64,000 nt of DNA from NCBI RefSeq assembly GCF_028464065.1, contig NZ_CP116808.1:1071886-1135885 (forward strand). The letters run 5' to 3'. The position numbers and the translations under genes were made by a program. Position 1 is the first letter of the stretch; every line of letters starts with the position of its first letter. The notes under the pieces were generated by a model, which saw only the letters and a program-made list of their open reading frames with translations, did no database searches and was not told the origin of the DNA. This DNA is from Saprospira sp. CCB-QB6. Lineage in GTDB: Bacteria > Bacteroidota > Bacteroidia > Chitinophagales > Saprospiraceae. Positions 61,547 to 63,553 of the stretch are shown here, piece by piece.

Positions 61547-63553
61547 ATGCCAAAATTATTGAAACTTACCATGATGGTCCTATTTCTTTTGCCGCTTAGT
61601 TTGGGGGCTCAAGATACTGATGGGCTATACAATGTAAACATGAAATTTTATCATTTGGACCTTGATATAGACATTGACAATCCTAAAATCAAGGGCAAGG
61701 TCTATATGGAATTTGTAGCGGTTAAAGACCAGGTAGAAACGCTTTATTTGGACCTTGGCGAGGGGATGGAAATAACAAAAATCGATGGTGCGGCCTCTTT
61801 TGAACGAGAAGGGGAGGAAGTCTTGGTTAAGCTATCGAGCCGTCCGTTGCGCAAAGAAGAAAGAGGTAAAATCACGGTGCATTATGAGGGTGTTCCAGAA
61901 AATGAGCAGGTTAATGTCGATGGAGAAACCGTAACCAAAGGGTTACTAGTCAAAAACCGTGGAAAGGATAAATTTCAGAGTCGCTTAGTTGCCTTAGCGG
62001 CTTATCCTCAGGCGGGTTATCGTTGGTTTCCCTGCCGCAGAGGTATTGGGGACAAGGTAGATTCTGTTTATGTAGATGTGAGCATCCCCGTTCGTTTTAG
62101 TACGGCTATGGTACAAGAAAAAGAGCGAAAAATTCCCTATACAGCCATATCTAATGGTGTTTTGGAAGGGACAGAAATTATCGAAGATGGCAAAAAGCGC
62201 AAATTTAAATGGCGTCACCGTCATCGTATTGCGCCCCACCACTTGACCATTGCTATTTCTAATTTTGCCAAAATGGAAGTGGAGTACAAAGCCAAAGGCT
62301 ATAGCTTCCCGATCAACTTTTATATCTTTCCAGAGCATTTGGAAGAAGCCAATGCAACGATCAATCGCTCTAAGGAAATCATGGCTTGTTTGAGCCGCAC
62401 TTTTGGCCCCTACCCCTATAAAGATGAAGGCTTTAGCGTCATTGAATTGGGCTTGCCTTTAGGTCTAGATGGTATGCCCACCCAAACAGCAGTTTTGGTA
62501 GAAGACCTCAAGAGCTTTCATATGTACCAAGTGGTGCACCAAGCAGCCAATATGTGGTTTGGCAACCATATTTCGCCAGAAGCTTGGCAGGATGCCTGGA
62601 TCACGGAAGCCCTAGCCACCTATGCCGAAGCCACCTGGCAAGAGTATAAGCGTGGACTAAACGTTTACCAAATTATTTTGGACCAAAAGGAATACTACGA
62701 AGGCGGAAAACTCTATTTGGATAATATCAATGAGTACTCTCAAGAACGCCTCTCTAAAAAGGGCATGTATGTAATTCACATGCTTCGCGGCATTATGGGC
62801 GACGAATATTTTTACGAAACCCTCAAGGGAATTACCGAACTCAAAAGAGGCAAAAGCACCTATTTGAGTACCGAGCGCTTTAGAGAAATTTGCGAATATT
62901 ACGCTAGTGAAAATGAGCCCAAAGACTTCAAATACTTCTTTGATCAATGGGTATTTGGCGAATATTACCCCACCTATAAAGTAGAGTATGAAAAAAGCCG
63001 CAACGGCATCAATCTACGCATCCTACAAGAAAAAGTAGAAGGCCAAGAACAATTCTTTGAAATGCCCGCCCGCCTTCGCTTTACCCTAGAAGATGGCAGC
63101 ACAGTAGAAAAGGTCGTGCAACTCAAGGCCCAAGCCGATCAAAGTATAGAAGTCGAGCTAGAGCAAAACTTTAATAAACTCGAATTCGATCCCTTCAACT
63201 GGATTTTTAAAGACCTACAATATACCCGAGAGATTCTCTCTAGCCGCAGCCCCATCGAAAACATGAGCATTACGACTAGCCAAGGCCGTCGAAAAATTGC
63301 CCTTAGCTTCGATAGCCCCAAAAAACAAAATATCGAAATCCAACTCATCCAAAAAGCCAATGGAGTCGATATCCTAGAAGATAAGATACTTCAAAGCCAA
63401 GAGCTGAAAAAAATCAAGGGCCAAAAAGAACTGAGCTTCAAATTGCCCGTTCCGCCCAAAAGCCGAGGCGTTTTCGAACTCAAAATTATCGGAAAATCAG
63501 ATGTCTTTTCTAAGGTCATCCGCGTCACTCAGCTAGAAGAACGCTTTAAATAA
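61547..63553 (+). CDS. Secreted M1-peptidase-family homologue with a degenerate zinc site.
   Basis: Region HQAANMWFGNH...WITEALATYAE aligns to the M1 HEXXH-x18-E motif ([10 protein letters not shown]...WLNEGFATY). The catalytic Glu and second His are replaced (HQAAN). Confidence 0.55.
   Translation: MPKLLKLTMMVLFLLPLSLGAQDTDGLYNVNMKFYHLDLDIDIDNPKIKGKVYMEFVAVKDQVETLYLDLGEGMEITKIDGAASFEREGEEVLVKLSSRPLRKEERGKITVHYEGVPENEQVNVDGETVTKGLLVKNRGKDKFQSRLVALAAYPQAGYRWFPCRRGIGDKVDSVYVDVSIPVRFSTAMVQEKERKIPYTAISNGVLEGTEIIEDGKKRKFKWRHRHRIAPHHLTIAISNFAKMEVEYKAKGYSFPINFYIFPEHLEEANATINRSKEIMACLSRTFGPYPYKDEGFSVIELGLPLGLDGMPTQTAVLVEDLKSFHMYQVVHQAANMWFGNHISPEAWQDAWITEALATYAEATWQEYKRGLNVYQIILDQKEYYEGGKLYLDNINEYSQERLSKKGMYVIHMLRGIMGDEYFYETLKGITELKRGKSTYLSTERFREICEYYASENEPKDFKYFFDQWVFGEYYPTYKVEYEKSRNGINLRILQEKVEGQEQFFEMPARLRFTLEDGSTVEKVVQLKAQADQSIEVELEQNFNKLEFDPFNWIFKDLQYTREILSSRSPIENMSITTSQGRRKIALSFDSPKKQNIEIQLIQKANGVDILEDKILQSQELKKIKGQKELSFKLPVPPKSRGVFELKIIGKSDVFSKVIRVTQLEERFK

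What the first reader, a model, noticed from the sequence alone, without database searches (positions are those of the whole stretch)
61547..63553. Secreted M1-peptidase homologue with the zinc-binding HEXXH degenerated to HQAAN.
The segment HQAANMWFGNHISPEAWQDAWITEALATYAE aligns to the canonical M1 motif HEXXH-(x18)-E ([10 protein letters not shown]...WLNEGFATY). The downstream Glu and the WFGN context are preserved. The catalytic Glu (E to Q) and the second zinc-ligand His (H to N) are lost. This predicts a catalytically inactive pseudo-peptidase retained as a binding or scaffold protein, with a signal peptide. That is an uncommon and functionally interesting state for an aminopeptidase N family member.
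Basis: partly seen in the sequence, partly recalled or inferred. Interest (0 to 1): 0.55.

Follow-up and report, generated by a model that had tools for sequence, protein, structure and literature searches.

The report
Exported dead M1 aminopeptidase homologue
This Saprospira gene encodes an exported protein with the full fold of an M1 zinc aminopeptidase but without four of its six catalytic residues; the whole Saprospira/Aureispira lineage keeps it under strong selection, so it is a conserved bacterial pseudo-peptidase whose partner and role are unknown.

Summary
ORF 61547-63553 (+, 668 aa) is a real M1 homologue (Pfam PF01433 above its cut-off; Foldseek E about 1e-27 to IRAP, ERAP1 and APN). 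HQAAN aligns to HELAH, with the Glu exactly 18 residues downstream retained. Two more catalytic elements are also lost. The GXMEN exopeptidase motif reads DGMPT (Glu to Pro). The transition-state Tyr is Ser403. The protein has no other HExxH or HxxxH.

About 70 orthologues share the degenerate state. They come from Saprospira, Aureispira, uncultured Saprospiraceae and one Chitinophagales MAG. They form one clade nested among active-looking M1 peptidases that carry a T9SS sorting domain.

The gene is not decaying. dN/dS is about 0.05 overall and 0.005-0.011 in the former catalytic domain, and the old active-site helices are the most conserved stretch.

The protein has a Sec signal peptide, M1 domains I-III, no helical domain IV, and a C-terminal beta-sandwich that is probably a diverged T9SS sorting domain (inconclusive).

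My best reading is an exported, non-catalytic binding protein. M1 pseudo-peptidases are known in eukaryotes (TAF2, Tma108), so this is a new bacterial member of a known kind. Interest is moderate.

The parts
61547..63553 (+). Complete CDS, 668 aa plus stop: M1-family non-peptidase homologue
   Evidence: ORF list; Pfam PF01433; orthologues with the same start and length
61547..61609 (+). Sec-type signal peptide, residues 1-21 (MPKLLKLTMMVLFLLPLSLGA|QDT); Gln at +1 fits the Bacteroidetes Q-rule
   Evidence: Read from the sequence; comparable leaders in nearly all clade members; Q-rule from PMC5837995. No predictor was run.
61628..62356 (+). M1 domain I (N-terminal beta domain), residues about 28-270
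   Evidence: All-beta in the AF2 model; PF17900 matched in 35 of 52 clade members; Foldseek alignment to IRAP/ERAP1
62357..62956 (+). Thermolysin-like former catalytic domain, residues about 271-470; the most constrained part of the protein
   Evidence: PF01433 match 329-468; dN/dS 0.005 and 0.011; mean top-residue frequency 0.75 against 0.61 for the whole protein
62468..62482 (+). Degenerate GXMEN exopeptidase motif: DGMPT, with Pro311 in place of the Glu that binds the substrate N-terminus
   Evidence: Active relatives have G[AG]IEN with Glu in 48 of 48; the clade has Pro in 88%.
62537..62551 (+). Degenerate HEXXH: HQAAN. First zinc ligand His331 is kept; general-base Glu is Gln332; second zinc ligand His is Asn335.
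62606..62608 (+). Glu354, the retained third zinc-ligand position, exactly 18 residues after position 335 (WITEAL against WLNEGF)
   Evidence: Glu in 97% of the clade
62753..62755 (+). Ser403 at the position of the transition-state Tyr (Y-x-K-G of active M1; aligned to the Tyr of SYSKGA in aminopeptidase N)
62957..63241 (+). M1 domain III, beta-sandwich, residues about 471-565
   Evidence: AF2 strands 476-563; inside the roughly 560-column Foldseek alignments to four-domain M1 enzymes; PF11940 (DUF3458, Ig-like) in 9 clade members
63242..63550 (+). C-terminal beta-sandwich, residues 566-668, in place of M1 helical domain IV; probably a diverged T9SS type-A sorting domain
63579..63611 (+). Intrinsic-terminator-like hairpin (12-bp stem) plus T-run, 26 nt after the stop codon

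Best explanation
The gene encodes a catalytically dead member of the M1 (aminopeptidase N) family. It is exported from the cytoplasm by a Sec signal peptide. It may then be taken across the outer membrane by the type IX secretion system, through a diverged C-terminal sorting domain. It keeps the M1 domains I-III and a highly conserved former active-site cleft. It cannot carry out the canonical reaction, because four elements are missing: the second zinc ligand (His to Asn), the general-base Glu (to Gln), the Glu of GXMEN that anchors the substrate's free N-terminus (to Pro), and the transition-state Tyr (to Ser). The loss happened once, in the ancestor of the Saprospira/Aureispira lineage, from a secreted active M1 peptidase. 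The protein has been kept under strong purifying selection since then. I infer that it now works as a non-catalytic binding protein that uses the old substrate cleft to hold a peptide or protein ligand in the periplasm or on the cell surface. Shown here: homology, fold, the four substitutions, their conservation across the clade, and purifying selection. Inferred: lack of zinc and activity, export route, and a binding function.
For: M1 homology and fold. Substitutions at four of the six catalytic positions examined. In rat aminopeptidase B, all 18 mutants of the HEXXH-X18-E motif lost activity (PMC2241622). Tyr to Phe at the equivalent Tyr of puromycin-sensitive aminopeptidase lowers kcat 1000-fold (bioRxiv 10.1101/2023.05.30.542994). 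Position 335 varies among N, S, A, G, R and H across the clade, so no ligand is selected there. The clade is monophyletic and nested among HEXXH/GXMEN/Tyr-intact relatives that carry PF18962. It occurs in 17 species-level genomes, including Saprospira grandis DSM 2844 with identical HQAAN. dN/dS is 0.048 (window against L003) and 0.025 (L002 against L005), and 0.005/0.011 in the former catalytic domain. The most conserved 30-residue window is 349-378. Signal peptides are conserved. The C-terminal domain is linked to T9SS CTDs by position, fold and weak profile similarity. Aureispira has a T9SS. Precedent for M1 pseudo-peptidases that bind through the old pocket: Tma108 (PMC11266112).
Against: No activity, metal content or localisation was measured. 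His331 and Glu354 are retained in over 93% of members, and the cleft is more conserved than a mere scaffold would seem to need, so a changed chemistry is not excluded. Tma108 binds through the GXMEN Glu, which is lost here, so the binding mode cannot be the same. No conserved gene neighbour or partner was found. The T9SS-CTD assignment is below every curated threshold: 1 of 52 members matches PF18962, at E=0.13. I could not read model coordinates, so the geometry of the residual site was not examined.
Confidence: 0.68

Rival explanations
1. It is still an enzyme with a remodelled active site. His331, Glu354 and clade-specific conserved polar residues (for example Asp349, Glu319, His341, Gln332) would bind a metal or act directly, giving a hydrolytic or other activity different from N-terminal peptide trimming.
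For: His331 (93%) and Glu354 (97%) are retained. dN/dS in this domain is extremely low (0.005-0.011). Clade-specific residues replace residues conserved in active relatives: H349D, N319E, M341H. One subclade reads HEMAS, with the Glu present. The intermediate P0121 keeps HEMGH..E but has lost the GXMEN Glu, which suggests a stepwise change of function rather than simple death.
Against: The second ligand position is A, S, N, G or R in different members, so no common three-ligand site exists. The general base and the oxyanion Tyr are both absent in most members. His341 is Y, F or R in some members. No known M1 enzyme works without HEXXH, and all motif mutants of Ap-B are dead.
Confidence: 0.12
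2. It is a decaying pseudogene or an annotation or alignment artefact; the real HEXXH lies elsewhere, or the ORF is not expressed.
For: Pfam and NCBIfam matches are weak for an M1 protein (33.7 bits; NCBIfam far below its cut-offs).
Against: The ORF is intact at 668 aa, with orthologues of the same length in at least 17 genomes and about 70 clusters. dN/dS is about 0.05 with dS about 1. There is no other HExxH or HxxxH in the protein. The fold match supports the same register. The gene has its own terminator.
Confidence: 0.02
3. It is a regulator or partner of active secreted peptidases, the classic pseudoenzyme role. For example, it could hold or present substrates to, or inhibit, the active T9SS-secreted M1 paralogues or the large S8 protease encoded just downstream in Saprospira.
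For: Its sister groups are active secreted M1 peptidases with the same architecture. In Saprospira the next gene (from 63869) encodes a secreted subtilisin-like protease of more than 1170 aa. Pseudopeptidases often regulate active relatives (PMC11266112).
Against: The S8 neighbour is not conserved in Aureispira or the other Saprospiraceae loci. The terminator between the genes argues against co-transcription. I did not check whether an active M1 paralogue is present in the same genomes.
Confidence: 0.15

Closest known systems
Active T9SS-secreted M1 metallopeptidases of Bacteroidota (e.g. P0074-P0120; 'T9SS type A sorting domain-containing protein', Lewinellaceae, P0115)
   Same: 28-35% identity over almost the full length, about the same size (620-680 aa) and collinear architecture: signal peptide, M1 domains I-III, small C-terminal beta-sandwich, no helical domain IV.
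   Different: They keep G[AG]IEN, HEL[AGS]H, WLNEGF and Y-x-K-G, and their C-terminal domain scores as PF18962. The window protein has DGMPT, HQAAN, WITEAL and S-K-K-G, and its C-terminal domain falls below the PF18962 threshold.
Deinococcus radiodurans two-domain M1 peptidase M1dr (PDB 6a8z, 6iff)
   Same: Best sequence match among solved structures (E=7.7e-11, and 1.7e-14 with the clade profile). It is also a short bacterial M1 protein without helical domain IV.
   Different: M1dr has an intact HELAH..E site, binds Zn and peptides, and has only domains I and II. The window protein has domains I-III plus a C-terminal sandwich and a dead site.
TAF2, TFIID subunit 2 (eukaryotic M1 homologue without peptidase function; PDB 7edx_B, 6mzc and others)
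   Same: M1 fold used as a non-catalytic protein. It is the third-best PDB hit of the clade profile (E=1.3e-11) and Foldseek rank 47 (E=1.2e-24, 655 columns). That TAF2 lacks peptidase function is from my own knowledge and MEROPS practice, not tested here.
   Different: TAF2 is nuclear, eukaryotic, about 1200 aa, and part of a transcription complex. There is no evidence of common descent of the inactive state; the losses are independent.
Tma108 (yeast M1-family translation-machinery-associated protein)
   Same: An M1 homologue thought to act non-enzymatically by holding a polypeptide in the substrate pocket (PMC11266112).
   Different: Tma108 keeps all active-site residues but one, and needs the residue that binds the substrate N-terminus. 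The window protein has lost that Glu and three other catalytic elements, and it is exported rather than cytosolic.

Membership tests
Peptidase family M1 (homology) | Significant profile match to the M1 catalytic domain (Pfam PF01433) above the gathering score | tested here: met
   33.7 bits against a cut-off of 27.7, E=3.7e-8; all 52 of 52 clade members match
Peptidase family M1 (homology) | M1 fold: N-terminal beta domain, thermolysin-like domain, and beta-sandwich domain III | tested here: met
   AF2 model pLDDT 89, pTM 0.85; Foldseek E=1.5e-27 to IRAP, about 560 aligned columns, TM (query-normalised) 0.64
Peptidase family M1 (active enzyme) | Zinc-binding and catalytic motif HEXXH-X18-E | tested here: not met
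   HQAAN-X18-E: Glu to Gln and second His to Asn; the spacing and the final Glu are kept
Peptidase family M1 (active enzyme) | GXMEN exopeptidase motif, with the Glu that binds the substrate alpha-amino group | tested here: not met
   DGMPT; Pro at the Glu position in 88% of the clade, against Glu in 48 of 48 active relatives
Peptidase family M1 (active enzyme) | Transition-state-stabilising Tyr (Y-x-K-G; Tyr438 of PSA) | tested here: not met
   Ser403; S, N or another residue in all clade members except P0059 and P0061
Peptidase family M1 (active enzyme) | Bound zinc and aminopeptidase activity | not testable with these tools
   Needs purified protein. Inactivity is inferred from mutagenesis of homologous enzymes.
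Pseudoenzyme (conserved non-catalytic homologue, not a pseudogene) | Catalytic residues lost, but the gene is intact and under purifying selection across species | tested here: met
   dN/dS 0.048 and 0.025; about 70 clusters and 17 genomes share the degenerate state
T9SS cargo (type A C-terminal sorting domain, PF18962/TIGR04183) | Profile match of the C-terminal 70-100 residues to PF18962/TIGR04183 | tested here: not met
   No match for the window protein at E<=1; 1 of 52 clade members matches, at E=0.13
T9SS cargo (type A C-terminal sorting domain, PF18962/TIGR04183) | C-terminal beta-sandwich homologous to CTDs of proven or annotated cargo | tested here: inconclusive
T9SS cargo (type A C-terminal sorting domain, PF18962/TIGR04183) | N-terminal Sec signal peptide and a T9SS in the host | tested here: inconclusive
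   The signal peptide is read by eye and conserved. A T9SS is documented for Aureispira. T9SS genes were not searched for in this window or genome.

The most novel reading that the evidence does not exclude
The Saprospira/Aureispira lineage of gliding, prey-catching (ixotrophic) filamentous bacteria converted a T9SS-secreted aminopeptidase into a surface-exposed or released non-catalytic ligand-binding protein. Its old active-site cleft, the most conserved part of the molecule, would now capture a specific peptide or protein, for example from prey, from the cell's own surface machinery, or from a secreted protease. This would be the first functionally defined bacterial M1 pseudo-peptidase. The intermediates P0121 (zinc site kept, GXMEN lost) and the HS[LM]SH subclade would record the order in which catalysis was dismantled.
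Probability: 0.2. Interest if true: 0.6.

Novelty: new member of a known kind. Interest (0 to 1): 0.35.

Why it matters
Public annotation calls these proteins 'M1 family aminopeptidase' or 'aminopeptidase N'. That label is almost certainly wrong as a statement of function for the whole clade. Pseudo-peptidases of family M1 have so far been discussed for eukaryotic intracellular proteins (Tma108 in the 2024 review; TAF2). A secreted bacterial clade is different: its dead catalytic domain evolves at dN/dS of about 0.01, and graded intermediates survive in sister lineages. That makes it a clean natural series for asking how a zinc peptidase is turned into something else, and what the old cleft is used for. 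The practical value is modest: it corrects annotation and offers a candidate surface or secreted factor in predatory Saprospiraceae.

Tried and rejected
1. Another HExxH or HxxxH in the protein, or another HExxH..E in the window: none found.
2. NCBIfam: only sub-threshold fragments of pepN and LTA4H models.
3. Conserved gene neighbourhood: the upstream Abhydrolase_3 and TerB-DnaJ genes are shared only with the closest relatives (L002). A. anguillae (L001) has different neighbours, and the downstream genes differ in all three. No operon partner emerged.
4. T9SS CTD by direct profile. An HMM of the active relatives' CTDs against the clade gives only E of about 0.002-1, though the hits fall in register at the C-terminus. 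Pfam on 52 members gives one weak hit. I left this as inconclusive.
6. Rfam on 60900-64000: nothing meaningful.
7. Literature: no paper holds both 'Aureispira' and 'aminopeptidase'. The ixotrophy paper does not mention peptidases. The pseudopeptidase review has no bacterial M1 case.
8. The idea that the inverted GC-rich repeats flanking the gene mark a mobile cassette was rejected. The same element occurs at three other places in the window, and synteny with L002 is kept.

Full report
**Observation**

The ORF at 61547..63553 (+) is real and encodes 668 residues. HQAAN is residues 331-335, nt 62537-62551.

- Pfam's Peptidase_M1 domain matches above its gathering score (33.7 against 27.7 bits, E=3.7e-8, residues 329-468).
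- phmmer against all PDB sequences gives the two-domain M1 peptidase of Deinococcus radiodurans (6a8z, E=7.7e-11) as best hit, followed by dozens of APN, ERAP and IRAP chains.
- In those alignments 'vHQAANmWFGNhisp..WqDaWItEAlATYAE' lies on '[15 protein letters not shown]..[15 protein letters not shown]'. A profile of the clade gives the same register.
- The Glu sits exactly 18 residues after position 335, as in HEXXH-X18-E.
- An AlphaFold2 model built on 52 orthologues is confident (pLDDT 89.2, pTM 0.85). Foldseek aligns about 560 columns to IRAP, ERAP1, ERAP2 and bacterial PepN at E of about 1e-27. The second refutation condition fails too.

I aligned the query with 120 database relatives. 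The 28-35%-identical relatives (P0073-P0120) keep every hallmark of an M1 aminopeptidase:

| Element | Active relatives | Window protein |
|---|---|---|
| GXMEN exopeptidase motif | G[AG]IEN | DGMPT (Pro311 at the Glu that binds the substrate's free amino group; nt 62468-62482) |
| HEXXH | HEL[AGS]H | HQAAN |
| Third-ligand region | WLNEGF | WITEAL (third-ligand Glu354 kept, neighbouring Asn lost) |
| Transition-state Tyr | Y-x-K-G | S-K-K-G |

Ser403 aligns with the Tyr of SYSKGA in aminopeptidase N. So four of the six catalytic positions are substituted, and only His331 and Glu354 remain.

Published mutagenesis indicates that each kind of loss is disabling on its own. All 18 mutants of the HEXXH-X18-E motif of aminopeptidase B were inactive (PMC2241622). 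Tyr to Phe at the equivalent Tyr of puromycin-sensitive aminopeptidase lowers kcat 1000-fold.

**It is a conserved clade, not an accident**

- P0001-P0072 (39-93% identity, nearly all 650-690 aa) share the degenerate state.
- In a neighbour-joining tree they form one clade, sister to P0073 and nested among HEXXH-intact relatives that carry a T9SS C-terminal sorting domain (PF18962).
- States inside the clade are HQ[AM]A[NSA] (the majority), HEMAS, HQLSN, HNxSR, YLSAG, NQTAS, and HS[LM]SH in an early-branching subclade that keeps both His. Position 335 varies among N, S, A, G, R and H, so no metal ligand is selected there.
- An exhaustive HMMER scan of 1.84 billion cluster representatives shows a score gap after the clade (451, then 373, then 299 bits). 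Of the 149 aligned sequences (the query, six earlier hits and the 142 new representatives), 142 keep HExxH. The seven exceptions are the query, five clade representatives and one independent case, P0145.
- P0121 (37% identity) is an intermediate. It keeps HEMGH and the Glu, but its GXMEN region reads NGAPM and the Tyr is out of register.
- A scan of one genome per species places the clade in Saprospira grandis DSM 2844 (92% identity, identical HQAAN), Aureispira spp., uncultured Saprospiraceae and one Chitinophagales MAG: 17 genomes. The window is therefore from a Saprospira relative.

**Selection**

| Pair | Identity | dS | dN/dS overall | dN/dS in residues 271-470 |
|---|---|---|---|---|
| Window against L003 | 92% aa | 0.97 | 0.048 | 0.005 |
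| L002 against L005 | 88% aa | saturated | 0.025 | 0.011 |

Both pairs come from Nei-Gojobori estimates on codon alignments. The former catalytic domain (271-470) is the lowest of the four domains.

Across 52 orthologues the most conserved 30-residue window is 349-378. The two old active-site helices (326-370) have a mean top-residue frequency of 0.81, against 0.61 for the whole protein. The cleft is being preserved even though its catalytic residues are gone.

**Architecture and export**

- Residues 1-21 form a typical Sec leader (MPKLLKLTMMVLFLLPLSLGA|QDT). Comparable leaders, often followed by Gln, occur in nearly all orthologues. This fits the Bacteroidetes Q-rule (PMC5837995). No predictor was available, so this is read from the sequence.
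- The model shows M1 domain I (about 28-270), the thermolysin-like domain (271-470) and beta-sandwich domain III (471-565). There is no helical domain IV; instead there is a 100-residue beta-sandwich (566-668).
- The active relatives carry a T9SS type-A sorting domain at the same position.
- Direct profile evidence for this in the pseudo-clade is weak. One of 52 members matches PF18962, at E=0.13. hhalign is in register at E=0.012.
- There is a transitive link. The clade's C-terminal HMM hits P0121 (1e-9), P0073 (2.5e-8) and P0122 (3e-4). The same stretch of P0122 matches PF18962 at E=0.015.
- I conclude that the domain probably descends from a T9SS CTD. Whether it still works as a sorting signal is open. 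Aureispira has a T9SS.

**Context**

The gene stands alone. It is divergent from an Abhydrolase_3 esterase gene (60057-61088, minus strand). It is followed by a 12-bp-stem terminator (63579-63611) and then by the start of a very large secreted subtilisin-like protease gene (from 63869). Only the upstream neighbours are shared with the nearest relatives (L002). Aureispira anguillae (L001) has different neighbours. No partner can be read from synteny.

**Mechanism**

My best reading is an exported pseudo-peptidase that uses the retained cleft for non-catalytic binding (confidence about 0.68). I am more confident in the narrower claim that it is not a canonical M1 aminopeptidase, roughly 0.85-0.9.

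The binding mode cannot copy that of yeast Tma108, which needs the residue that binds the substrate N-terminus. That residue is Pro here.

- **Remodelled enzyme (0.12).** This rests on retained His331 and Glu354, on clade-specific polar replacements (H349D, N319E, M341H), and on the extreme constraint.
- **Regulator or partner of secreted peptidases (0.15).** This is really a special case of the binding idea.
- **Pseudogene or artefact (0.02).** Conservation excludes it.

**Comparison and novelty**

By descent the protein is a member of family M1: profile and fold were both tested and met. It fails all three sequence hallmarks of an active M1 peptidase. In MEROPS terms it is a non-peptidase homologue.

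Known M1 pseudo-peptidases are eukaryotic and intracellular. TAF2 is the third-best PDB hit of the clade profile (E=1.3e-11) and Foldseek rank 47. Tma108 is described in the 2024 review. I found no described bacterial case, but absence from the searched library is not proof.

Database names for the clade ('M1 family aminopeptidase', 'aminopeptidase N') overstate what the sequence supports.

**Verdict**

This is a new bacterial, exported member of a known kind. It is of moderate interest (0.35), mainly as a well-preserved natural series of stepwise loss of catalysis.

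Noticed in passing
window 61157-61236 and 63628-63707; further copies near 21807 (+), 29292 (-), 59189 (-): A dispersed, very GC-rich intergenic repeat family of about 120-150 nt, with core GGCCAGACCCAGCGGGCAAAGCCCGCGCAGGGCCGAGCAG, in a roughly 44% GC genome. There are five copies in the window, against 0 expected by chance. Two copies flank the M1-homologue gene as an 80-nt, 86%-complementary inverted pair. They also produce the spurious Ala/Arg/Pro/Gly-rich ORFs at 61031-61319 and 63546-63795. 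The family looks REP- or MITE-like.
   Followed up: partly
window 63869-64000 (+), runs off the window; orthologue L006 6424-9944: The downstream gene encodes a secreted protein of more than 1170 aa with subtilisin (S8) signatures (GTHGDM, GGTSAAAP) and a Sec leader ending AQ|T. This neighbour is present in Saprospira but not in the Aureispira or other Saprospiraceae loci.
   Followed up: partly
P0121 (metagenomic relative, 671 aa); P0064, P0066, P0069-P0071: These are apparent evolutionary intermediates. P0121 keeps HEMGH..E but has lost the GXMEN Glu. An early-branching subclade reads HS[LM]SH, with both zinc His kept and the catalytic Glu replaced by Ser. Together they suggest that the N-terminus anchor and the general base were lost before the zinc ligands.
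   Followed up: partly
P0145 (636 aa, 30% identity to the query): This looks like an independent M1 homologue with a destroyed motif (YGLVK at the HEXXH position, Lys at the third-ligand Glu), outside the Saprospira/Aureispira clade.
   Followed up: no
window residues Cys163 (nt 62033-62035) and Cys281 (nt 62387-62389) of the ORF: Cys163 is invariant in both active and inactive relatives. Cys281 is specific to the pseudo-clade (94%; Phe or Leu in active relatives). A clade-specific disulfide in this exported protein is possible, but distances in the model could not be measured.
   Followed up: no
window 59294-60049 (-): An unusual fusion protein: an N-terminal hydrophobic segment, then a TerB domain, then a C-terminal DnaJ (J) domain. 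It lies two genes upstream of the M1 homologue and is syntenic in L002.
   Followed up: no
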